Positions 749 through 8,363 of a stretch of 8,626 bases of DNA are shown here, piece by piece. How positions within the stretch are numbered: the first letter of the stretch is position 1; each line of letters starts with the position of its first letter. The stretch lies in the IMG/VR virus record IMGVR_UViG_2698536618_000012, positions 1 through 8,626 of that record; one strand, 5' to 3'. This DNA is from a virus. Lineage: Duplodnaviria > Heunggongvirae > Uroviricota > Caudoviricetes. The notes under the pieces are model-generated. The model was not told where the DNA came from. It made no database searches and saw nothing but the letters and a program-made list of their open reading frames with translations. The position numbers and the translations under genes are program-made.

Positions 749-1260
749 GCGAGATTAATTATCAGGAAGGGCATGAAACGGCAGGGCAGGCAAAACCAGT
801 TGCATGGCGATATCGCTACGTGAAAAAAGACGTTACAGACTTTCAGGGGAAGCCGTGGGCTGGTGACTGGAAATATGTACCGACAAAAGAGGATTGTAAC
901 GACAGGCCGAACTATGAAATTCAGGCCTTATTCATCGGCCCGCCAGTCCCGGTGACATCAGAAGGACTGGTTAAAGCCGTGCGCTTTTATGAACAGGTAA
1001 AGCGTGAGAATCCGCCAGTCGAAACAGGAGCATGGAAGGATGCTGTTGACTGGGTGCTCAGAGAGGCCTGCTGCGCTGCCATTCTGGGTAAAGCCGACAA
1101 TCCACCAGCATCCGGCAATCAGGTTAGCGAATTAACAATGTGGGTTAAACGACTGGTCAGTCAACTGAAAAAAGCGCAGCCGGACTGCAAATTACCGGAG
1201 AAGGCGATGGATTACCTGAAACGAAATGGACTGATAAGCGTGGAGGATGTTTTACGATGA
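745..1260 (+). CDS. hypothetical phage protein (171 aa)
   Basis: Long ORF with ATGA start/stop coupling to the upstream ORF; no recognisable family motif. Confidence 0.55.
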   Translation: MSEINYQEGHETAGQAKPVAWRYRYVKKDVTDFQGKPWAGDWKYVPTKEDCNDRPNYEIQALFIGPPVPVTSEGLVKAVRFYEQVKRENPPVETGAWKDAVDWVLREACCAAILGKADNPPASGNQVSELTMWVKRLVSQLKKAQPDCKLPEKAMDYLKRNGLISVEDVLR

Positions 1261-1380
1261 ATATTTAGACTAAAGAATTTGTAACGCTATGTAAGTGATT
1301 TTTTCTGGTTTAGATATTTATATGTCCGGCCAAATTGAGGTGTGTTTAAATGTTATTGCACATTGATTGTAGGGGGAATA

Positions 1381-1560
1381 ATGAAAAACGCATTGCAGTT
1401 TTTGTTTGTTGCGTTCTGGTTGTTCGCATCATGTATGCCCATCATCTTCACAGCAAGGTATATGGAAAAAATTGATGTTTTGATATTAATGTTTGGACAT
1501 ATAAATGCCCTTTTTTTAGGGGTGTTCATGGCGGTCATGTGCATTGAATACTGGCGGTAA
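1381..1560 (+). CDS. hypothetical small membrane protein (59 aa) in an AT-rich segment
   Basis: ATG at 1381 preceded by SD-like GGGGG (1372-1376). Translation MKNALQFLFVAFWLFASCMPIIFTARYMEKIDVLILMFGHINALFLGVFMAVMCIEYWR has two hydrophobic segments. AT-richness also allows spurious ORFs here. Confidence 0.35.
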   Translation: MKNALQFLFVAFWLFASCMPIIFTARYMEKIDVLILMFGHINALFLGVFMAVMCIEYWR

Positions 1561-1614
1561 ATACAGCGAACGCCATTGGTTTAGTTGGATATTTACTGTG
1601 CCGGACAAAAACGG

Positions 1615-1643
1615 TTTGCGGGGAAATCTTAGTTAAGTAGAAT
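1615..1643 (+). promoter_or_regulatory. candidate sigma70 promoter for the hok mRNA (-35 TTTGCG, 17-nt spacer, -10 TAGAAT 1638-1643)
   Basis: The -10 hexamer is a good match and the -35 is weak. The predicted start near 1650 puts the 9-nt box TGCGGGTGC (1647-1655) at the 5' end of the transcript, and this box is complementary to 2031-2039 near the 3' end. Confidence 0.3.
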
Positions 1644-1818
1644 AACTGCGGGTGCTTGAGGCTATCTGTCTCAGGCATGAACACCAAAAGGCAGATAGAG
1701 AAAAGCCCCAGTTAACATTACGCGTCCTGCAAGACGCTTAACATTAATCTGAGGCCATATCTATGCGACACATAGAGATTAGCCTCTTACGGACCGAAAG
1801 GTCAAGGAGAAGCAGGCT

Positions 1819-1974
1819 ATGAAGCAGCAAAAGGCGATGTTAATCGCCCTGATCGTCATCTGTTTAACCGTCATAGTGACGGCACTGGTAACGAGGAAAG
1901 ACCTCTGCGAGGTACGAATCCGAACCGGCCAGACGGAGGTCGCTGTCTTCACAGCTTACGAACCTGAGGAGTAA
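1819..1974 (+). CDS. hokD: Hok/Gef-family type I toxin (51 aa)
   Basis: Own translation MKQQKAMLIALIVICLTVIVTALVTRKDLCEVRIRTGQTEVAVFTAYEPEE matches the Hok/Gef family signature (single TM helix then TRKDLCEV..R..GQTEVAVF.AYE); to my recollection it matches HokD (RelF) of the E. coli Qin prophage. Confidence 0.88.
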   Translation: MKQQKAMLIALIVICLTVIVTALVTRKDLCEVRIRTGQTEVAVFTAYEPEE

Positions 1975-1981
1975 GAGACCC

Positions 1982-2003
1982 GGCGAGGGAGAAATCCCTC
2001 GCC
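1982..2003 (+). other. perfect 9-bp stem with GAAA tetraloop immediately 3' of hok (GGCGAGGGA-gaaa-TCCCTCGCC)
   Basis: Read directly from the sequence. It sits where hok mRNAs carry their 3' fold-back (fbi) structures. Confidence 0.6.
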
Positions 2004-2042
2004 ACCTCTGATGTGGCAGGCATTCTCAACGCACCCGCACTT

Positions 2043-2070
2043 AACCCGCTTCGGCGGGTTTTTGTTTTTA
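2043..2070 (+). terminator. intrinsic terminator of the hok transcript
   Basis: AACCCGC-ttcg-GCGGGTT: 7-bp stem with UUCG loop, followed by TTTTTGTTTTTATTTT. Confidence 0.75.
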
Positions 2071-2082
2071 TTTTCAACGCAT

Positions 2083-2112
2083 TTGAAGTTCTGGACGGTG
2101 CCGGAATAGAAT
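2083..2112 (+). promoter_or_regulatory. candidate sigma70 promoter upstream of the rem-like gene (-35 TTGAAG 2083-2088, 18-nt spacer, -10 TAGAAT 2107-2112)
   Basis: Hexamers read by eye; lies just downstream of the hok terminator. Confidence 0.3.
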
Positions 2113-2190
2113 CAAAAATACTTAAGTAGCGCGCAGGGATAAGAGGGATGGTCCCTTAAAGGGGAGAGCTAATTATCCGGAAGGATTCTG

Positions 2191-2442
2191 ATGATGAACA
2201 TCGAAGAACTGCGTAAAATTTTTTGTGAAGATGGCCTCTATGCTGTGTGCGTTGAAAATGGAAATATTGTTAGTCATTACCGCATTGTGTGTTTGCAAAA
2301 AAATGGGGCTGCGTTAATTAATTTTGTGGATGCCCGAGTGACGGACGGATTTATCTTGCGCGACGGTGAGTTTGTCACTTCATTACAGGTATTGAAAGAG
2401 ATCGGAATAAAAGCTGGCTTTTCTGCTTTTTCAGAAGAATAA
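2191..2442 (+). CDS. rem: small hypothetical prophage protein (83 aa), Rem-like by size and position
   Basis: ORF with SD-like GGAAGGA upstream. Symbol is assigned by recalled synteny only (hokD - rem - ydfU in K-12 Qin, rem being 83 aa), not by sequence comparison. Confidence 0.5.
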   Translation: MMNIEELRKIFCEDGLYAVCVENGNIVSHYRIVCLQKNGAALINFVDARVTDGFILRDGEFVTSLQVLKEIGIKAGFSAFSEE

Positions 2443-2508
2443 ACTCATCTACAATCTTGCGCGGGGCTGAACTCCCGCTGAGTAACACCGTGCCACCGGA
2501 GAAAACCG

Positions 2509-2787
2509 ATGGCACGCAACGCAAAATATTACAAACATGATAATTCGACCGTTCTTGCCCACACGCACGAGCGGTATTCTCACGCATTTAAGTCAGACTG
2601 GTACCAGCATCCCCCATGCACTGAAGAACAGGCCGAATGGCTCATTCAGTGTTACCGCAGGCGCGGATGCGAGGTTAAAAAAGCCCTTAGCCTCGACTAC
2701 CGTCACTGGATAATCTCCGTCAGGCTTCCTTACTCCGAACACCCACCGCGTCCGTCCCGCACATTCCAGCAACGCATCTGGAGGTAA
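2509..2787 (+). CDS. hypothetical Cys/His-rich small protein (92 aa), possibly metal-binding
   Basis: GGAG 9 nt upstream of ATG 2509; its stop abuts the next gene's SD and start. Contains H..H...C..C..C. May correspond to the DUF1364-type small proteins of nin regions, but that is unverified. Confidence 0.5.
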   Translation: MARNAKYYKHDNSTVLAHTHERYSHAFKSDWYQHPPCTEEQAEWLIQCYRRRGCEVKKALSLDYRHWIISVRLPYSEHPPRPSRTFQQRIWR

Positions 2788-2788
2788 C

Positions 2789-3838
2789 GTGCGGGTATTA
2801 CTTCGACCTGTTCTGGTACCGGAACTCGGGCTGGTGATCGTTAAGCCGGGCCGTGAATCCATGCCGGTATTCCACAATACCCGGGTACTGGTGGAGCCGG
2901 AACCGAAAAGCATGCGTAATCTGCCGTCCGGGGTCGTTCCTGCCGTTCGCCAGCCGCTGGCGGAGGATAAATCATTACTGCCATTTTTCAGCGACGAACG
3001 AGTGATTCGTGCTGCTGGTGGCGCTGGCGCATTGTCTGACTGGTTACTGCGCCATGTTAAATCCTGCCAGTGGCCACACGGCGATTATCACCACAGTGAA
3101 ACCGTCATTCACCGTTATGGTACCGGCGCAATGGTGTTGTGCTGGCACTGCGACAACCAGTTGCGTGATCAGACCTCCGAATCACTTGAGCAACTTGCTC
3201 ACCGAAACTTGTCAGCATGGATGATTGACGTCATTCGTCACGCAATGAATGGCACACAGGAGCGTGAATTATCGCTGGCTGAATTATCCTGGTGGGCGGC
3301 CTGCAATCAGGTGGTGGATGCACTACCTGAGGCAGTAGCGCGTCGTTCGCTGGGATTACCAGCGGAAAAAATCCGCTCCGTATACCGTGAGAGTGACATC
3401 GTACCGGGAGAACAGACAGCCATCAGCATACTGAAGCAGCGCACAAAAAATATTGCGCTGCCACTTCACGTCCACCAGCAACAAAATCCACCACAGAAAA
3501 AAACGGTTGTCAGTATCGCCGTTGATCCGGAGTCTCCTGAATCGTTCATGAGGCGACCTAAACGTTGCCGTTGGGTTAATGAGAAATACACGCGCTGGGT
3601 AAAGACACAGCCGTGTGCGTGTTGTGGTAAGCCTGCTGACGATCCGCATCACCTGATTGGTCATGGTCAGGGGGGAATGGGGACAAAGGCCCACGATATT
3701 TTCACGCTACCGTTGTGCCGGGAGCACCACAACGAACTTCATGCAGACCCGCTGGAGTTTGAGAAAAAGTACGGCTCTCAGATTGAGTTAATTTTTCGTT
3801 TTCTTGATCACGCCTTTGCAACTGGCGTGCTTGGGTAA
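2789..3838 (+). CDS. ydfU: DUF968/YdfU-like prophage protein (349 aa) with a C-terminal HNH-like Cys/His motif (putative nuclease)
   Basis: GTG start 2789 with GGAGG 4 nt upstream. C-terminal PCACCGKPADDPHHLIGHGQGG...LPLCREHHNELH is HNH/zinc-finger-like; a second Cys/His cluster is CQWPHGDYHH...CWHCDNQ. Length and position upstream of rusA fit the YdfU/DUF968 family as I recall it. Confidence 0.75.
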   Translation: MRVLLRPVLVPELGLVIVKPGRESMPVFHNTRVLVEPEPKSMRNLPSGVVPAVRQPLAEDKSLLPFFSDERVIRAAGGAGALSDWLLRHVKSCQWPHGDYHHSETVIHRYGTGAMVLCWHCDNQLRDQTSESLEQLAHRNLSAWMIDVIRHAMNGTQERELSLAELSWWAACNQVVDALPEAVARRSLGLPAEKIRSVYRESDIVPGEQTAISILKQRTKNIALPLHVHQQQNPPQKKTVVSIAVDPESPESFMRRPKRCRWVNEKYTRWVKTQPCACCGKPADDPHHLIGHGQGGMGTKAHDIFTLPLCREHHNELHADPLEFEKKYGSQIELIFRFLDHAFATGVLG

Positions 3839-3850
3839 AAGAGGTGACTG

Positions 3851-4210
3851 ATGCTCATAGATTTGGTTTTACCTTACCCGCCGACGGTGAACACTTACTG
3901 GCGACGCCGTGGCAGCACATATTTTATCTCGGAGGAGGGAAAGCGTTATCGCCGGGCTGTGGCGCTTATTGTTCGCCAGCAGCGGCTGAAATTAAGCCTG
4001 TCCGGAAGGCTGGCGATAAAGGTGATTGCAGAGCCACCGGATAAGCGTCGTCGCGACCTGGACAACATTCTGAAAGCACCGCTGGATGCGCTGACGCATG
4101 CGGGAGTGCTCATTGATGATGAGCAGTTTGATGAAATCAATATTGTACGTGGTCAGCCAGTATCTGGTGGACGGCTGGGTGTGAAGATTTACAAAATTGA
4201 GAGTGAGTGA
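3851..4210 (+). CDS. rusA: RusA-family Holliday junction resolvase (crossover junction endodeoxyribonuclease)
   Basis: 119 aa with SD AGAGG 7 nt upstream. Translation carries the RusA hallmarks (N-terminal LPYPPTVNTYWRRRG, catalytic-region RRRDLDN, C-terminal GG.L...I) and aligns by eye with E. coli RusA. Confidence 0.9.
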   Translation: MLIDLVLPYPPTVNTYWRRRGSTYFISEEGKRYRRAVALIVRQQRLKLSLSGRLAIKVIAEPPDKRRRDLDNILKAPLDALTHAGVLIDDEQFDEINIVRGQPVSGGRLGVKIYKIESE

Positions 4211-4218
4211 GCGTAAAT

Positions 4219-4749
4219 ATGATATATCCGGAAATTACAGGCAAAAGCGGCGAACATTTACGCCTGAACACGCTGGAAGCAGTCTGGATCCAGGGGAAAT
4301 TACGGATGTGGGGGCGGTGGTCGTATATCGGTGGGGGTAAATCCGGAAATATGTTTAACCGGTTACTGGTTTCGAAAAAGCTGACGAAAACAGCAGTTAA
4401 TGAGGTTTTACGCAGAATGAAGAAATCCGGGCTGGAAAAACCGGAACTTGAGGCATTTTTTCGGGATATGACAAGAGGAAAGCAGAAGAGCTGGTTGTCA
4501 CATTGTACAGACACAGAGGCGTTGATTATTGATCGCGTTATCAGTGAGGTGCTTGGGGAATATCCCGGGCTAATCAATATTCTCCGGCAAAGGTACGAAG
4601 GACGGGGAATGAGTAAGAGAAAAATGGCAGAATGTTTAAATCGTACTCACCCGGAATGGTGTTTCAGCACATGTGAGAAACGTATTGCAGGTTGGTTAGC
4701 CGTGGCTGAACACATGCTTTATGTACCTATGCACGATTCATTTCGATAA
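4219..4749 (+). CDS. putative late-gene antiterminator (Q-like) protein, 176 aa; functional assignment is positional
   Basis: ORF immediately downstream of rusA (the canonical Q position in lambdoid phages) and followed by a hairpin-rich leader and strong intrinsic terminator. ATG 4219 is preferred over GTG 4207, which overlaps the rusA stop. No Q-family motif could be verified by eye. Confidence 0.55.
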   Translation: MIYPEITGKSGEHLRLNTLEAVWIQGKLRMWGRWSYIGGGKSGNMFNRLLVSKKLTKTAVNEVLRRMKKSGLEKPELEAFFRDMTRGKQKSWLSHCTDTEALIIDRVISEVLGEYPGLINILRQRYEGRGMSKRKMAECLNRTHPEWCFSTCEKRIAGWLAVAEHMLYVPMHDSFR

Positions 4750-4845
4750 AAAAAGCTTGCTTTTTTACGCAGAAACAGCTTGAATTCCTGTAAGCTTCGC
4801 AAAGCTGTATCGCGAGGCGAAATGCAAGTTTTTTCGCACAAGGAA

Positions 4846-4867
4846 GCCACCGGAAGGTGGTTTTTTT
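4846..4867 (+). terminator. strong intrinsic terminator after the Q-like gene (tR'-like)
   Basis: GCCACC-ggaa-GGTGG(T) stem followed by TTTTTTT. Preceded by another hairpin, GCGAAA-tgcaagttt-TTTCGC (4817-4837). Confidence 0.75.
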
Positions 4868-4990
4868 GTGTCCGTAATATACAGCAGCGCAATAAATTCG
4901 CTGGTGGTTATTAATACCGTTCTTTCAGCTTGCTGGCTTTTTCGACAAGAGTTATTGGTGTGTCACGTTAACCGGAAAAGGGAAAAAGGC

Positions 4991-5188
4991 ATGCTAAAAC
5001 AGCAGGATATGACCGAAACCGCCAGAGTGGTGTTTAATGAATTAAGCGTCACCGAACCGGCGACCGTCGAGGAAATTGCGCAGAACACTTATCTTTCACG
5101 CGAACGCTGCCAGTTAATACTGACCCAGCTTGTTATGGCGGGTCTGGCAGATTATCAGTTCGGTTGTTACAGACGCCTTCCTCAGTGA
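4991..5188 (+). CDS. small winged-helix DNA-binding protein (65 aa), PapI/FaeA-like or controller-like regulator
   Basis: Internal ATG of track ORF 4868..5188 with SD AAGGGAAAAAGG. TVEEIAQNTYLSRERCQLILTQLVMAGLADYQFGCYRRL has a helix-turn-helix-wing pattern. The GTG-extended N-terminus (4868-4990) looks non-coding. Confidence 0.5.
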   Translation: MLKQQDMTETARVVFNELSVTEPATVEEIAQNTYLSRERCQLILTQLVMAGLADYQFGCYRRLPQ

Positions 5189-5198
5189 AGGCTTTTTT
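5175..5198 (+). terminator. intrinsic terminator overlapping the stop codon of the wHTH gene
   Basis: GCCTTC-ctcagt-GAAGGC: 6-bp stem followed by TTTTTTATTT. Confidence 0.6.
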
Positions 5199-5338
5199 AT
5201 TTGTGGTAATGGGCGGCTGGTGGGTGTTAGCGGCACCTGCCAGCCATCTGCTCATGCGTTGGGGTCACAAGCAAACCTCAGGCCCATCTGCTTTGCGCAA
5301 AAGCGGTATGAGCCTATCAGAGAAGTGCTTATTGATCT

Positions 5339-6418
5339 ATGGCTAATACTGTAAAAATATCCAGTTGTGAGTTAATCAACGCTGATTGCCTGGAATTTAT
5401 CCAGACCTTACCGGAAAACTCTGTCGATCTGATAGTCACAGACCCGCCATACTTTAAAGTGAAGCCCGAGGGCTGGGATAACCAGTGGAAGGGCGACGAT
5501 GATTACCTGAAGTGGCTGGACCAGTGTCTGGCGCAGTTCTGGCGGGTGCTGAAACCTGCCGGAAGTCTTTACCTGTTCTGTGGCCATCGCCTGGCATCTG
5601 ATATCGAAATCATGATGCGTGAACGCTTCAGTGTGCTGAACCATATTATCTGGGCGAAGCCGTCCGGACGCTGGAACGGATGCAACAAGGAAAGCCTGCG
5701 GGCGTATTTCCCCGCCACAGAGCGCATTCTGTTCGCGGAACATTATCAGGGGCCGTATCGTCCGAAAGATGCCGGGTATGCGGCGAAGGGCAGTGCACTG
5801 AAACAGCATGTGATGGCCCCGCTGATTTCTTACTTTCGTGATGCGCGTGCTGCTCTGGGGATAACGGCAAAACAGATTGCAGATGCCACAGGAAAGAAAA
5901 ACATGGTGTCGCACTGGTTCAGTGCCAGTCAGTGGCAGCTACCGAACGAAAGCGATTATCTGAAATTACAGTCGCTGTTTGCCCGGGTGGCAGAAGAGAA
6001 ACATCAGCGGGGTGAACTGGAAAAGCCACATCACCAACTGGTCAGCACATACAGTGAGCTGAACCGGCAAAACCGGCAATATGCCAGCCTGCTGGAGGAG
6101 TACAAATCTTTGCGGCGTTATTTTTCTGTATCGGCTGCTGTTCCGTATACGGATGTCTGGATGTATAAGCCTGTACAGTATTATCCGGGCAAACACCCCT
6201 GTGAAAAACCGGCAGATATGTTGCGTCAGATAATAGAGGCCAGCAGTCGTCCGGGTGATTTGGTTGCCGACTTTTTTATGGGGTCAGGTTCCACGATAAA
6301 AGCCGCGCTTTCGCTTGGTCGTCGGGCAATAGGCGTTGAGCTTGAGGCTGAACGGTTTGAGCAGACGGTGAGCGAGATAAGAGAAATTCTGACGTGTAAA
6401 GCTGTTGAAAATATATAA
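5339..6418 (+). CDS. orphan beta-class DNA methyltransferase (N6_N4_Mtase family; DPPY motif suggests N6-adenine)
   Basis: 359 aa. Catalytic motif IV DLIVTDPPYF lies near the N-terminus and the AdoMet-binding motif I DFFMGSGST near the C-terminus, with a roughly 200-aa target-recognition region between. This is the beta-class order, and overall architecture resembles YhdJ-like adenine methyltransferases. No restriction endonuclease gene is evident nearby. Confidence 0.9.
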   Translation: MANTVKISSCELINADCLEFIQTLPENSVDLIVTDPPYFKVKPEGWDNQWKGDDDYLKWLDQCLAQFWRVLKPAGSLYLFCGHRLASDIEIMMRERFSVLNHIIWAKPSGRWNGCNKESLRAYFPATERILFAEHYQGPYRPKDAGYAAKGSALKQHVMAPLISYFRDARAALGITAKQIADATGKKNMVSHWFSASQWQLPNESDYLKLQSLFARVAEEKHQRGELEKPHHQLVSTYSELNRQNRQYASLLEEYKSLRRYFSVSAAVPYTDVWMYKPVQYYPGKHPCEKPADMLRQIIEASSRPGDLVADFFMGSGSTIKAALSLGRRAIGVELEAERFEQTVSEIREILTCKAVENI

Positions 6419-6480: not shown

Positions 6481-6741
6481 ATGATTGAGGTTCGATGGAC
6501 AAGGACAGCCCTGAAGCAGTTACTTCGTGTGGATACGCGGTATCGGCAGGCGATAAAGGATAAGGTCGGTGCGCTAAAGGATTTTCCTCTGGTAGCCATG
6601 GATTTTAAAAAGCTATCAGGGAGTGACAATCGATTCCGTTTGAGGGTCGGCGTGTACAGGGTTATTTTTGATGTTGAGGATGGTGATCCTGTTGTCCTGG
6701 ATATTAAGGAAATTAAGCGCAGAAGCACAACCACATACTAA
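6481..6741 (+). CDS. type II toxin, RelE/ParE superfamily (toxin-first, HigB-like gene order)
   Basis: ATG 6481 with strong SD GAGGGGGG 5 nt upstream. The 86-aa product has the RelE/ParE pattern (..RFRLRVGVYRVIFDVEDGDPVVLDIKEIKRR...Y). The track ORF start at 6421 is probably an over-extension. Confidence 0.8.
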   Translation: MIEVRWTRTALKQLLRVDTRYRQAIKDKVGALKDFPLVAMDFKKLSGSDNRFRLRVGVYRVIFDVEDGDPVVLDIKEIKRRSTTTY

Positions 6742-6801
6742 GGGAGGCTGGCGGGAGACCGCCAGTTTGCTGAACGACATTCAATCGCGAAAGGCAATGA
6801 T

Positions 6802-7176
6802 ATGAAAAACAGTGTCCAGTTTATTACTGATAATGCCGGTGTTAGAACCGGGGTCATTATGTCAGTTGCTGAATATGAACGGCTGTTAAGTCTGGCAGAT
6901 CCTGATGATGATTTTGAAAGCATCCAGTATGAAGCCGGAGAGCATGACAATGAAACAATACCTCATGAAGTAGTATCCATCATGATTGATGATGATGTGT
7001 CATTGTTGGCAGCATGGCGGATTTACAGGCGAATGACTCAACAGGAAGTGGCGGAGCGCCTGGGGGTTAAACAGTCAGCCGTATCTCAGTTTGAGAGAGC
7101 AGGAGCTCCGCGAAAATCAACACTGGAAAAACTGGCTGAGATTTACAACTGCCGACCAAATCAGTTGGCTGATTAA
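6802..7176 (+). CDS. antitoxin with N-terminal Phd/YefM-like segment and C-terminal XRE-type HTH (124 aa)
   Basis: AAGG 7 nt upstream of ATG. N-terminus NAGVRTGVIMSVAEYERLLSL resembles the YefM/Phd motif; C-terminus LLAAWRIYRRMTQQEVAERLGVKQSAVSQFERAG...LEKLAEIY is a classic HTH_XRE. Lies directly downstream of the toxin. Confidence 0.8.
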   Translation: MKNSVQFITDNAGVRTGVIMSVAEYERLLSLADPDDDFESIQYEAGEHDNETIPHEVVSIMIDDDVSLLAAWRIYRRMTQQEVAERLGVKQSAVSQFERAGAPRKSTLEKLAEIYNCRPNQLAD

Positions 7177-7482: not shown

Positions 7483-7914
7483 ATGTTTGGTATTTTCAAA
7501 AAGAAAACCCGCAGAGCAGCAACTGAAATTAAAAAGTTTGAGAAACGCGATCTGGCACAGGCGGTTATTAATGCTGCCTACCTGGTGGCCTATGCAGATG
7601 GTGAATGTGAGACTTCAGAGAAAGTGAAGATCGAACAGGTATTACGTAACCAGCCAGCATTGTCCGCATTTACGTCAGAAATTAATGCCATCAGTGCCAC
7701 GATCACAGGTCAGCTTGACACCAATTTTAAAATTGGTCGTCGTGCAGCGTTGCGTGAAATTGAAGATGTGAAACACGATACGCGTGAAGCGGAAGATGTG
7801 CTGGATGTGGCGGTGGCCATTGCTGAAGCAGATGGTGAAATTGAGCCGGAAGAGCGTAAGGTTCTGGAAGAGATTGCTGGTGTTCTTGGCCTGCGACTGG
7901 AGAACCACCTGTGA
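7483..7914 (+). CDS. TerB-domain protein (tellurite-resistance TerB-like, 143 aa)
   Basis: SD AAGGA 8 nt upstream. Two copies of the TerB-type helical motif (hydrophobic-x-A-x-A-D-G-x-acidic...E-K/R): AAYLVAYADGECETSEKVKIEQVL and DVAVAIAEADGEIEPEERKVLEEIAGVLGL. Confidence 0.7.
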   Translation: MFGIFKKKTRRAATEIKKFEKRDLAQAVINAAYLVAYADGECETSEKVKIEQVLRNQPALSAFTSEINAISATITGQLDTNFKIGRRAALREIEDVKHDTREAEDVLDVAVAIAEADGEIEPEERKVLEEIAGVLGLRLENHL

Positions 7915-8078: not shown

Positions 8079-8243
8079 TTTTTTTGTTTGCTGTTTATTA
8101 AAAACACTTCTGCATGGTGAATCCCCCTGTGCGGTGGGGCAATCAGCAAGAAGGAATATGGGGTAATCGCGGATTCAGGTGCTGATACTGAATTCACCGG
8201 GAGGCACCCGGCACCATGCAAGAAAAAGAATGTGCATGCAAAC

Positions 8244-8271
8244 ATGCCCCTCTCCGGAGGGGCATTTTTTA
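8244..8271 (+). terminator. strong intrinsic terminator (9-bp stem ATGCCCCTC-tccg-GAGGGGCAT followed by TTTTTT)
   Basis: Read directly from the sequence. An adjacent hairpin GCCCGAA-tggg-TTCGGGC (8284-8301), preceded by AAAAAA, would act as a terminator for the opposite strand, so the pair may be bidirectional. Confidence 0.7.
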
Positions 8272-8363
8272 TGGGTAAAAAATGCCCGAATGGGTTCGGG
8301 CAATAGCATGAGATACTGATATTGTTGTGTTGTTATCGTGTGGATTTTAACCAGGGTTTATCA

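What the first reader, a model, noticed from the sequence alone, without database searches (positions are those of the whole stretch)
4991..6418. Orphan beta-class adenine methyltransferase preceded by a small wHTH protein and operator-like repeats
Seen: the 65-aa wHTH ORF (4991-5188) ends in its own terminator. The 150-nt gap before the methyltransferase holds two copies of CCATCTGCT (5244-5252 and 5284-5292, 40 nt apart), the second followed directly by the perfect 10-bp palindrome TTTGCGCAAA (5292-5301). The methyltransferase carries DPPY and FFMGSGST motifs but no endonuclease gene is nearby. Established: small HTH controller proteins regulate restriction-modification genes through palindromic boxes, and PapI/FaeA-like wHTH proteins act together with adenine methylation in phase variation. 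Inference: the wHTH protein may regulate the methyltransferase through these sites, giving a phage-borne epigenetic or anti-restriction module.
Basis: partly seen in the sequence, partly recalled or inferred. Interest (0 to 1): 0.6.

Follow-up and report, generated by a model that had tools for sequence, protein, structure and literature searches.

The report
Structured RNA leader guarding phage methyltransferase
The gene is a prophage copy of the well-known non-specific adenine methyltransferase M.EcoGII, and the "operator-like repeats" in front of it are strands of a conserved, undescribed folded RNA leader that, with a small winged-helix protein gene, forms a widespread cassette at the start of the phage late operon.

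Summary

- **Methyltransferase.** It is about 89% identical to M.EcoGII, the non-specific m6A enzyme that is toxic and silent in lysogens. The target-recognition region is almost identical.
- **Position.** It lies just downstream of the Q antiterminator and a strong terminator, as the first cargo of a lambdoid late operon. The cassette matches 2465 of 5426 complete E. coli genomes.
- **Winged-helix gene.** The 65-aa ORF is a real gene under strong purifying selection. It precedes the methyltransferase in 32 of 34 species-level loci, from Escherichia to Plesiomonas. It fits neither the FaeA/PapI family nor the C-protein family. About 8% of related phage contigs lack it.
- **The 150-nt gap.** It is not an operator region. 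It encodes a roughly 130-nt structured RNA (helices P1-P5) with abundant compensatory changes and a G·U to A·C ratio of 118:10. It has no Rfam match.
- **Distribution of the leader.** It also precedes this methyltransferase in N15-like, Vibrio and Aeromonas phages. In two Vibrio/Aeromonas phages a small zinc-ribbon gene (Com-like by Pfam in one) sits between leader and enzyme.
The palindrome is helix P5. The exact 9-mer repeat is lineage-specific.
- **Ribosome binding.** The methyltransferase has no Shine-Dalgarno sequence.

How the leader and the winged-helix protein act remains inferred.

The parts
4207..4749 (+). Context: Q-type late antiterminator gene (DUF1133 / Phage_antitermQ).
   Evidence: Pfam DUF1133 6e-111 and Phage_antitermQ 2e-8. 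PHROG 753 'anti-termination protein Q-like'.
4836..4871 (+). Context: strong intrinsic terminator after Q (presumed tR'). The Q-specific late promoter is expected between 4750 and 4835 but was not located.
   Evidence: 16-bp hairpin, -23.9 kcal/mol, z = -5.5, followed by a T7 run. Most related loci carry a hairpin with a U-run at the same place, upstream of the cassette.
4930..4958 (+). Conserved bipartite promoter-like motif upstream of the winged-helix gene: TTGCTG (4930-4935), a 17-nt variable spacer, then TATTGG (TATCTG in most genera), preceded by invariant AGAGTTA.
   Evidence: Two conserved blocks at a fixed distance across the genera aligned, with no consensus RNA structure. It fails the sigma-70 consensus scan. 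It resembles the annotated putative late promoter of phiKO2, TTGGCAA-N16-TATCGT. Function untested.
4991..5188 (+). Gene for a 65-aa winged-helix protein (PHROG 331, function unknown).
   Evidence: 326 protein clusters across Enterobacterales. Invariant CQLILTQL and AG in the H3 stretch, with many synonymous codon changes. AlphaFold2 pLDDT 89.9, topology H1-b-H2-H3-b-b. Foldseek finds generic winged-helix domains.
5175..5202 (+). Hairpin overlapping the stop codon plus a U-tract. It is a weak-to-moderate intrinsic terminator in this window and directly abuts the leader.
   Evidence: -8.9 kcal/mol. The stem covaries in Enterobacteriaceae, but the U-run is poor in most genera and the hairpin is absent in Proteus and Providencia. 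In loci lacking the winged-helix gene a terminator hairpin sits at the same place.
5209..5337 (+). Structured leader RNA.
- P1: 5209-5214 / 5250-5255
- P2: 5215-5226 / 5234-5245
- P3a: 5263-5267 / 5333-5337
- P3b: 5269-5272 / 5327-5330
- P4: 5280-5283 / 5312-5315
- P5: 5290-5294 / 5300-5304
- Alternative partner of the P1 5' strand: 5282-5287
   Evidence: z = -3.4 for the window sequence. On an unfitted MAFFT alignment, 85.8% of cells are paired against 28-50% when partners are slid, and 41 double-change cells against 9.0 +/- 2.4 in shuffles. On the diverse model-fitted set, 27 of 36 pairs show compensatory change. G·U:A·C is 118:10. The covariance model finds one + strand copy per locus (two in L004), directly upstream of the methyltransferase. 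No Rfam family matches. Stop codons in all frames rule out a conserved ORF.
5216..5223 (+). Chi sequence GCTGGTGG, forming the 5' strand of P2. A second Chi lies at 4900-4907.
   Evidence: The window holds 5 Chi sites against 0.32 expected. The P2 5' strand is near-invariant in most enterobacterial loci while the 3' strand varies.
5244..5252 (+). It spans the 3' end of P2, a 4-nt junction and the start of the P1 3' strand.
   Evidence: The sequence is CCATTCGCT or CCATCAGCT in other genera.
5284..5301 (+). Copy 2 overlaps GCCCAU (the alternative partner of the P1 5' strand) and the P5 5' strand. The palindrome is the P5 stem and loop.
   Evidence: The P5 stem covaries in distant phages: GCUUU/AAAGC, GCGAU/AUCGC, GCUC/GAGC. 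The alternative helix is 94% paired, with 3 compensated pairs.
5339..6418 (+). Beta-class N6-adenine DNA methyltransferase, an orthologue of M.EcoGII. It has no Shine-Dalgarno sequence.
   Evidence: Pfam N6_N4_Mtase 1e-44. 313 of 353 residues identical to the M.EcoGII sequence printed in the supplement of PMC11551740. Mean duplex energy with the core anti-SD is -0.8 kcal/mol, against -4.25 for the winged-helix gene.

Best explanation
This is the entry cassette of a lambdoid prophage late operon. It has four parts: a small winged-helix protein gene, a hairpin or terminator, a roughly 130-nt structured leader RNA, and an SD-less gene for an M.EcoGII-type non-specific adenine methyltransferase.

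**Shown**
- The enzyme's identity with M.EcoGII.
- The conserved pairing of the two genes.
- The RNA structure, its strand, and its distribution.
- The absence of a Shine-Dalgarno sequence.
- The position after Q and a strong terminator.

**Inferred**
- In the lysogen, transcription from the late promoter stops at the terminator at 4836-4871 and again at the hairpin at 5175-5202. The toxic enzyme therefore stays silent.
- After induction, Q-modified RNA polymerase reads through.
- The leader then sets how much enzyme is made. The start region (UGAUC-U-AUG) is the 3' strand of helix P3a. The 5' strand of P1 can pair instead with GCCCAU at 5282-5287, which would break P4 and P3.
- The enzyme methylates replicating phage DNA at most adenines before packaging, protecting progeny from adenine-sensitive restriction.

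The winged-helix protein is a frequent but dispensable accessory. It probably modulates the cassette through its own promoter-like motif or through the leader. Its target is unknown.
For: **Enzyme identity.** 89% identity to M.EcoGII, including the target-recognition region. Published work shows M.EcoGII is non-specific, deleterious when expressed and not expressed in the lysogen (PMC5778455).

**Late-operon position.** The order is Q, terminator, cassette in the window. The same cassette follows different Q alleles. In N15 and phiKO2 the records annotate a putative late promoter and terminator directly before the leader and methyltransferase, with holin after it. The methyltransferase sits directly before holin or lysis genes in mEp460 and in Vibrio and Aeromonas phages.

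**RNA leader.** Covariation, slide controls and shuffles. G·U:A·C of 118:10. A single + strand copy per locus, apart from a duplicate in L004. Detected upstream of homologues at 48-62% protein identity. Of 117 pattern-anchored viral contigs, 112 have the methyltransferase downstream. Three are evident false pattern matches and two end too soon to tell.

**No SD.**

**Alternative helix.**. One Aeromonas sequence changes all three strands together.

**Winged-helix gene.**
Against: - No expression data were available. The late promoter in 4750-4835 was not identified.
- A conserved promoter-like motif at 4930-4958 lies downstream of the strong terminator. It could drive Q-independent transcription of the winged-helix gene, and some read-through into the methyltransferase.
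- The predicted cost of opening the start region is ordinary: 5.7 +/- 1.7 kcal/mol, no higher than for the winged-helix gene.
- That cost differs little between the two conformations in the window, 9.2 versus 7.7 kcal/mol. Simple occlusion is therefore not demonstrated.
- Support for the alternative helix rests on few independent lineages.
- The U-tract after the hairpin is poor in most genera.
- The diverse alignments are fitted to the covariance model, which biases pair counts towards the structure.
- The M.EcoGII sequence was machine-read from a supplement and may contain errors.
Confidence: 0.6

Rival explanations
1. First reader's model. The winged-helix protein is a DNA-binding controller, like a C-protein or PapI/FaeA. 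It binds the two CCATCTGCT copies and the palindrome as operators and switches methyltransferase transcription.
For: Tight synteny of the two genes with a fixed gap. A confident winged-helix fold. In many genera the P5 region is a long perfect DNA palindrome, for example GCTTTAGCGCTAAAGC, which a dimer could read.
Against: - The 9-mer repeat is not conserved as a repeat.
- The helices contain many G·U pairs that would be A·C mismatches on the other strand, 118 against 10.
- Helix strands covary while keeping pairing, not sequence.
- The leader is conserved where the winged-helix gene is absent or replaced by a small zinc-ribbon (Com-like) gene.
- Winged-helix alleles are shuffled relative to leader-methyltransferase lineages.
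- There is no FaeA or HTH_3 match.
- By my residue count, the protein is net acidic.
Confidence: 0.1
2. Com-like model. The winged-helix protein binds the leader RNA and activates or represses methyltransferase translation, as Com does for mom in phage Mu.
For: A small gene lies immediately upstream of a toxic DNA-modification gene in a late operon. The methyltransferase is SD-less and its start abuts a conserved helix. In Aeromonas and Vibrio relatives a Com-type zinc-ribbon gene sits next to the homologous methyltransferase. Some winged-helix domains bind RNA, and SelB appears among the fold hits.
Against: - The protein is not a zinc ribbon.
- Leader plus methyltransferase exist without it in about 8% of contigs and in N15-like phages. 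There the distant homologue gp51 lies upstream of the late promoter.
- In the Com-carrying phages the leader precedes the Com-like gene, so the leader and Com are separate layers.
- There is no coupling between winged-helix clade and leader type.
- The protein is acidic (my residue count).
Confidence: 0.2
3. Independent-function model. The winged-helix protein is expressed from its own promoter (the motif at 4930-4958) in the lysogen. It does something unrelated to the methyltransferase, such as autoregulation, host or superinfection control, or protein-protein interaction. Synteny would then reflect a shared insertion site after tR'.
For: A conserved bipartite motif with a variable spacer sits upstream of the gene in all aligned loci. 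The winged-helix gene plus P1-P2 persist when the methyltransferase is replaced by an AraC-type gene or other cargo. Top fold hits include winged-helix dimerisation domains of methyltransferases, which are not DNA readers.
Against: The motif fails a sigma-70 consensus scan. The gene pair is kept together from Escherichia to Plesiomonas, down to 41% protein identity for the winged-helix protein. That is more than expected for unrelated neighbours in mosaic phages.
Confidence: 0.2
4. Autoregulation model, not exclusive of the best explanation. The methyltransferase, which binds and methylates RNA, binds its own leader and limits its own translation.
For: M.EcoGII acts on single-stranded RNA (PMC5778455; PMC7544214). 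The leader tracks the methyltransferase lineage, not the winged-helix clade.
Against: There is no direct evidence. The enzyme is non-specific, so specific operator binding is not expected.
Confidence: 0.12
5. DNA-level model. The gap is conserved because it is a Chi recombination hotspot and a module boundary, not because of RNA structure.
For: Chi forms the P2 5' strand and is near-invariant in most enterobacterial loci, while the 3' strand varies. Recombination breakpoints fall just after P1-P2 in L014 and L118.
Against: P2 keeps pairing through compensatory change in Proteus, Vibrio, Aeromonas and N15-like sequences that have no Chi. P3, P4 and P5 covary independently of Chi.
Confidence: 0.05

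Closest known systems
M.EcoGII / M.EcoGI of E. coli O104:H4 (non-specific beta-class N6-adenine methyltransferase)
   Same: About 89% identical over the full length, with the same motif order (DPPY, target-recognition region, FxGxG) and a near-identical target-recognition region. Both are prophage-borne. Phage 1720a-02, named in the M.EcoGII paper as carrying a very similar enzyme, carries the same cassette.
   Different: This copy is 359 aa, not 349, with a small insertion and a divergent C-terminal third. Its activity was not measured. The M.EcoGII papers read here do not describe the upstream winged-helix gene or the leader RNA.
Phage Mu com-mom operon (own knowledge: Com, a small zinc-finger protein, binds the mRNA and opens a hairpin that masks the mom start)
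   Same: A toxic DNA adenine-modifying enzyme made late. A small gene immediately upstream. A structured mRNA region adjoining the start codon. True Com-family genes sit next to homologous methyltransferases in Aeromonas and Vibrio phages.
   Different: The small protein here is a winged helix, not a zinc ribbon. The RNA is a five-helix element of about 130 nt, not a single hairpin. Predicted masking of the start is weak. The protein is dispensable in some phages.
Lambdoid late control: Q antitermination at pR'-tR', with cargo genes such as stx placed behind tR'
   Same: The same position between Q and the lysis genes. In phiP27 and many Stx2 phages the cassette lies between Q and the tRNA-stx genes.
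   Different: The cassette adds a second hairpin, a structured leader and a promoter-like motif of its own. Q dependence was not tested here.
Controller (C) proteins of restriction-modification systems
   Same: A small DNA-binding-fold protein is encoded upstream of a modification gene, with palindromic sequence nearby.
   Different: C-proteins are Xre-type HTH proteins that bind C-boxes upstream of their own gene and time a nuclease. Here the fold is a winged helix, there is no nuclease, and the palindrome is an RNA hairpin downstream of the gene.
N15 / phiKO2 / PY54 gp51-gp52 region
   Same: The same leader RNA (44-54 bits) and a homologous methyltransferase (57-62% identity) before the holin gene. 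gp51 is a small winged-helix protein weakly related to this one (hhalign probability 67%).
   Different: In these phages the annotated late promoter and terminator lie between the winged-helix gene and the leader. gp51 lacks the invariant RCQLILTQL helix.

Membership tests
Beta-class N6-adenine DNA methyltransferases, M.EcoGII subfamily | Motif order: motif IV (DPPY) N-terminal, then the target-recognition region, then motif I (FxGxG) C-terminal. Pfam N6_N4_Mtase. | tested here: met
   DPPY at residues 35-38 and FFMGSGST at 312-319. PF01555 at 153 bits.
Beta-class N6-adenine DNA methyltransferases, M.EcoGII subfamily | Close sequence identity to M.EcoGII across the target-recognition region (residues 160-237). 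| tested here: met
   313 of 353 residues identical overall. In the printed alignment rows covering residues 160-237 I see only two differences. The reference sequence was machine-read from the supplement of PMC11551740.
Beta-class N6-adenine DNA methyltransferases, M.EcoGII subfamily | Methylates adenine in any sequence context. Silent in the lysogen. | not testable with these tools
   Known for M.EcoGII only (PMC5778455).
R-M controller (C) proteins | Xre-type HTH (Pfam HTH_3) protein of about 70-100 aa. | tested here: not met
   No HTH_3 hit at E <= 0.1 for the 65-aa protein. The fold is a winged helix.
R-M controller (C) proteins | Associated restriction endonuclease, and C-box operators upstream of the C gene. 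| tested here: not met
   No nuclease gene in the window. The palindrome lies downstream of the gene and behaves as an RNA hairpin.
PapI / FaeA family | Match to the FaeA family profile. | tested here: not met
   No FaeA hit at E <= 0.1. The best hit is TrmB at 19.9 bits, below the 25.6 cut-off. NCBIfam gives none.
PapI / FaeA family | Acts with Dam at paired GATC sites in a phase-variable promoter. | tested here: not met
   I see a single GATC (5334-5337), next to the start codon. It is conserved in Enterobacterales but absent in N15-like leaders. The adjacent enzyme is not Dam-like.
Mu Com-type translational activators | Zinc-ribbon protein (Pfam Zn_ribbon_Com). | tested here: not met
   No such hit for the winged-helix protein. 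The hit is present in the Aeromonas phage phiARM81ld neighbour gene at 27.9 bits.
Mu Com-type translational activators | Binds the mRNA next to a hairpin that masks the start of the downstream modification gene. | tested here: inconclusive
   The start region is the 3' strand of the conserved helix P3a and lacks an SD. The predicted opening cost is ordinary. Binding cannot be tested.
Any described RNA family (Rfam 15) | Covariance-model match at or near the gathering score. | tested here: not met
   No hit in 5189-5338 at E <= 1 on the whole window. Only two chance-level hits at E of 5-9 on 5150-5400.
Structured cis-regulatory RNA (general) | Conserved base-paired helices supported by compensatory substitutions, strand-specific. 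| tested here: met
   A single + strand hit per locus, except a duplicate in L004.
Intrinsic terminator (hairpin at 5175-5202) | GC-rich stem followed directly by a U-tract. | tested here: met
   Met in the window, but the hairpin is weak. The U-tract is degenerate in most other genera and the hairpin is missing in Proteus and Providencia.

The most novel reading that the evidence does not exclude
The roughly 130-nt leader is a new class of two-state riboregulator. It switches between a P1/P3/P4 fold and an alternative AUGGGC-GCCCAU helix in response to a specific partner: the winged-helix protein, the RNA-methylating enzyme itself, or a metabolite such as SAM. The switch licenses translation of an SD-less, toxic, non-specific methyltransferase. 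It is conserved in thousands of prophages of Enterobacterales, Vibrio and Aeromonas.
Probability: 0.3. Interest if true: 0.75.

Novelty: new variant of a known kind. Interest (0 to 1): 0.6.

Why it matters
M.EcoGII is a widely used reagent for chromatin footprinting and m6A tools. Why it is silent in its native prophage has only been guessed at.

This analysis proposes a concrete and testable control architecture. The parts are late-operon placement behind terminators, a conserved structured leader absent from Rfam, an SD-less start, and a conserved small winged-helix partner of unknown function (PHROG 331).

The cassette matches almost half of complete E. coli genomes, including many Stx phages, where it lies between Q and stx. 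Its RNA elements and terminators could therefore also influence late transcription into toxin and lysis genes.

It also provides a clean candidate for a new cis-regulatory RNA family, with enough natural variation for structure-function work.

Tried and rejected
1. **Small ORF in the gap.** A 45-codon ORF (ATG at 5210) runs through the gap in the window. Other genera have in-frame stops, most loci have stops in all three frames, and the indels are not multiples of three. Rejected.
2. **Known RNA family.** None matched.
3. **FaeA, C-protein and TrmB membership.** No hits, or hits below threshold. PADLOC gave only a marginal SWIM hit.
4. **Strong thermodynamic masking of the methyltransferase start.** Not supported. 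The opening cost is 5.7 +/- 1.7 kcal/mol, similar to other genes, and differs little between the two conformations.
5. **RNA structure upstream of the winged-helix gene.** RNAalifold predicted no pairs. The motif looks promoter-like but fails the consensus scan.
6. **Stx2c phages lacking the winged-helix gene.** This was suggested by megablast and is wrong. They carry a divergent allele.
7. **Published annotation of the late promoter next to the cassette.** Tried by similarity search; nothing was annotated except in phiKO2 and N15. The late promoter of this window remains unlocated.
[quoted passage not shown] PMC3879109 is not held.
9. **Pattern scan of viral contigs.** It gave three false positives in GC-rich coding sequence.
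10. **Phage phiO18P.** It has a homologous methyltransferase but no leader.
Full report
**Observation**

By themselves the repeat and the palindrome are weak evidence. A direct repeat of 9 nt or more occurs in 2.3% of shuffles but in 11% of real 150-nt windows of this sequence. A palindrome of 10 bp or more occurs in 12% of shuffles and 22% of real windows, and the window holds 14 such palindromes. The "own terminator" is modest at -8.9 kcal/mol and z = -1.8.

**Context**

The window is the late-regulatory region of a lambdoid prophage. The gene order is:

- DUF968 (2789-3838)
- RusA (3851-4210)
- a Q-type antiterminator (4207-4749)
- a very strong terminator (4836-4871, -23.9 kcal/mol)
- the winged-helix gene
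- the methyltransferase
- a ParE-type toxin and HTH antitoxin pair
- a TerB-like gene
- the sRNAs STnc100 and AgvB

The cassette matches 2465 of 5426 complete E. coli genomes, and 1905 of them cover at least 80% of the query. It occurs in Stx2a, Stx2c, Stx2d and Stx2e phages. In phiP27 it is L23-L24, between Q and the tRNA-stx2e genes. It follows several unrelated Q alleles. It is therefore a mobile module that sits just behind the late terminator.

**The methyltransferase**

It belongs to Pfam N6_N4_Mtase. It is 313/353 (89%) identical to the M.EcoGII sequence printed in the supplement of PMC11551740. The target-recognition region is almost unchanged.

The M.EcoGII paper names phage 1720a-02 as carrying a very similar enzyme, and that phage has the same cassette. 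M.EcoGII methylates adenine in any context, in DNA and RNA. It is deleterious when expressed and is not expressed in the lysogen. Its authors guessed that it is switched on at induction (PMC5778455).

The enzyme here is therefore a new copy of a known enzyme, and an anti-restriction role at lytic growth is the natural reading. A phase-variation role is not.

**The winged-helix protein**

It is a genuine gene. There are 326 protein clusters across Enterobacterales. The residues CQLILTQL and AG in the H3 stretch are invariant, with abundant synonymous codon variation. The AlphaFold2 model is confident (pLDDT 89.9) and shows the classic H1-b-H2-H3-b-b topology.

Fold matches are generic. They include IclR and MarR N-terminal domains, the winged-helix dimerisation domain of small-molecule methyltransferases, and the RNA-binding winged helices of SelB. 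There is no FaeA hit and no Xre-type hit. TrmB is below threshold. PHROG 331 has no assigned function, and NCBIfam has no match. By my residue count the protein is net acidic.

In 34 species-representative genomes that encode it, 32 have the methyltransferase downstream. The two exceptions are a truncated copy and a contig end. The gap is 142-153 nt in all but one locus, where the winged-helix ORF carries a premature stop. The pair persists down to 41% winged-helix identity in Plesiomonas.

**The gap is a structured RNA**

Aligning the gap across genera shows near-invariant blocks interrupted by compensatory changes. I derived five helices:

| Helix | Window coordinates |
|---|---|
| P1 | 5209-5214 / 5250-5255 |
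| P2 | 5215-5226 / 5234-5245 |
| P3a | 5263-5267 / 5333-5337 |
| P3b | 5269-5272 / 5327-5330 |
| P4 | 5280-5283 / 5312-5315 |
| P5 | 5290-5294 / 5300-5304 |

The evidence for the structure is as follows.

- On the unfitted MAFFT alignment of 31 sequences, 85.8% of cells pair, against 28-50% when partners are slid. Double-sided changes number 41, against 9.0 +/- 2.4 in shuffles, with 0 of 500 shuffles reaching the observed value.
- On a diverse, model-fitted set of 14 sequences, 27 of 36 pairs show compensatory change, and 87% of cells pair against 30-42% when slid.
- G·U pairs outnumber A·C by 118 to 10. The structure therefore exists in the + strand transcript, not in duplex DNA or the opposite strand.
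- The window sequence folds with z = -3.4.
- A covariance model finds one + strand copy per locus (two in L004), directly upstream of the methyltransferase.
- Rfam has nothing here.
- Stop codons in all frames exclude a conserved peptide.

**Wider distribution**

With filters off, the model also detects the leader upstream of methyltransferase homologues at 48-62% protein identity:

- N15, phiKO2, PY54 and PhiR46_1, at 44-54 bits
- Vibrio phage VHML, at 46 bits
- Vibrio phages Val-yong3 and ST2-1pr, and Aeromonas phage phiARM81ld, at 31-35 bits

In N15 and phiKO2 the records annotate a putative late promoter and terminator immediately before the leader, and a holin gene after the methyltransferase. 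The small winged-helix protein gp51, weakly related to ours (hhalign probability 67%), lies upstream of that promoter.

In phiARM81ld the leader is followed by a Com-family zinc-ribbon gene (Pfam 27.9 bits) that overlaps the methyltransferase start, and then by holin. Val-yong3 has a 38-aa gene in the same position. Its record calls it "RNA polymerase subunit P"; I suspect a zinc ribbon but did not scan it.

A pattern scan of viral contigs gave 117 leader-anchored loci:

| Category | Count |
|---|---|
| Winged-helix gene and methyltransferase both present | 101 |
| Methyltransferase present, no winged-helix gene | 9 |
| Cut by a contig end | 4 |
| False pattern matches | 3 |

In those of the nine loci I inspected, a hairpin directly abuts the leader. 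In one it is tR' itself; in another it is a remnant of the winged-helix gene's 3' end.

Conversely, the winged-helix gene plus P1-P2 survive with a different downstream gene in L118 (AraC-type) and in L014. The conserved core is therefore hairpin, leader and methyltransferase. The winged-helix gene is a frequent and ancient, but dispensable, companion.

The palindrome is the stem and loop of P5. The P5 stem covaries in distant phages: GCUUU/AAAGC, GCGAU/AUCGC, GCUC/GAGC.

The first CCATCTGCT spans the end of P2, a junction, and the start of the P1 3' strand. The second overlaps GCCCAU and the start of P5. Outside the Escherichia-type sequences the two copies differ, for example CCATTCGCT against CCCACTGCT, so the exact repeat is lineage-specific.

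The repeat does point to something real. GCCCAU (5282-5287) is an alternative partner for the P1 5' strand AUGGGC. RNAalifold chose this helix on a diverse unfitted alignment. It is 94% paired, with three compensated positions. In the Aeromonas sequence all three strands changed together, to CGUGGC / GCCACG / GCCACG. The alternative fold is about 5 kcal/mol less stable in the window. The number of independent events is small, so I treat this switch as a hypothesis.

**Mechanism**

Shown:
- The methyltransferase has no Shine-Dalgarno sequence. The mean duplex energy with the core anti-SD is -0.8 kcal/mol, against -4.25 for the winged-helix gene and -2.7 to -11.6 for other genes of the window.
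- Its start codon is one base after the 3' strand of P3a (UGAUC in Enterobacterales, AUAGCU in N15-like phages).

Tested and weak:
- The predicted cost of opening the start region is ordinary and hardly differs between the two folds. Plain occlusion is not demonstrated.

Inferred:
- Transcription depends on Q read-through of the terminators, and the leader tunes translation or stability of the mRNA for a toxic enzyme.
- The closest functional analogy is Mu com-mom (own knowledge). The Com-type genes in Vibrio and Aeromonas relatives strengthen it. But the winged-helix protein is not a Com homologue and is not obligatory.

**Other conserved elements**

Upstream of the winged-helix gene, the aligned loci carry TTGCTG, a 17-nt spacer, then TAyNTG, with invariant AGAGTTA (window 4930-4958). 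It has no RNA structure. It resembles the annotated phiKO2 late promoter but fails the sigma-70 scan. It may be a weak or factor-dependent promoter, or the protein's own operator.

The P2 5' strand is the Chi sequence GCTGGTGG. It is near-invariant in most enterobacterial loci while the 3' strand drifts. A second Chi lies at 4900-4907. The window has 5 Chi sites against 0.32 expected, and in related loci they lie mostly on the + strand.

**Verdict**

- The enzyme is known.
- The cassette architecture, and especially the leader RNA, is not in Rfam and is not mentioned in the M.EcoGII papers read here.
- I rate it a new variant of a known kind of control, post-transcriptional and antitermination gating of a toxic phage DNA-modification gene.

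Limits: there are no expression or binding data, the late promoter of this window is not located, and the diverse alignments are fitted to the model.

Noticed in passing
window 1650-1974: A hok/sok-type toxin-antisense locus. The Rfam sok match scores 106.7 bits (1650-1821), and a Hok-like 51-aa ORF lies at 1819-1974.
   Followed up: no
window 8083-8338: The sRNA STnc100 (139 bits, + strand, 8083-8276) directly abuts the anti-GcvB sponge AgvB (96.5 bits, - strand, 8277-8338). A weaker AsxR-like match covers the same place.
   Followed up: no
window 1102-5223 (five sites): Chi (GCTGGTGG) is strongly over-represented, with 5 sites against 0.32 expected. One site forms the 5' strand of leader helix P2 and one lies at 4900-4907. 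In related prophage loci Chi sites lie mostly on the late-transcribed strand.
   Followed up: partly
window 6481-7176: A ParE/RelE-type toxin (6481-6741) and an Xre-HTH antitoxin-like gene (6802-7176) lie directly after the methyltransferase, followed by a TerB-family gene (7483-7914). The same trio occurs in phage PPyecE_EH1910.
   Followed up: no
L118 3742-5067: In E. coli 2011C_3361 the winged-helix gene and the first leader domain (P1-P2) are followed by an AraC-type regulator gene (237 aa) and three tRNA genes, not by the methyltransferase.
   Followed up: partly
L004 4198-4354 and 7183-7339: Two full copies of the leader about 3 kb apart in one viral contig, with the methyltransferase start after the second. 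This suggests an insertion or duplication inside the cassette.
   Followed up: no
L110 5001-5069: In Mangrovibacter yixingensis the winged-helix ORF is cut by a stop after 22 codons, while the leader (167 bits) and the methyltransferase stay intact.
   Followed up: no
window 7720-7737: An 18-bp perfect palindrome, ACCAATTTTAAAATTGGT, lies inside the TerB-family gene. It is the longest palindrome in the window.
   Followed up: no
window 5334-5337: A GATC (Dam) site lies 1 nt before the methyltransferase start codon. TGATC is conserved in nearly all Enterobacterales leaders, forms the 3' strand of P3a, and is complementary to GAUCA in the 16S rRNA 3' tail (own knowledge). N15-like leaders have AUAGCU instead.
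   Followed up: partly
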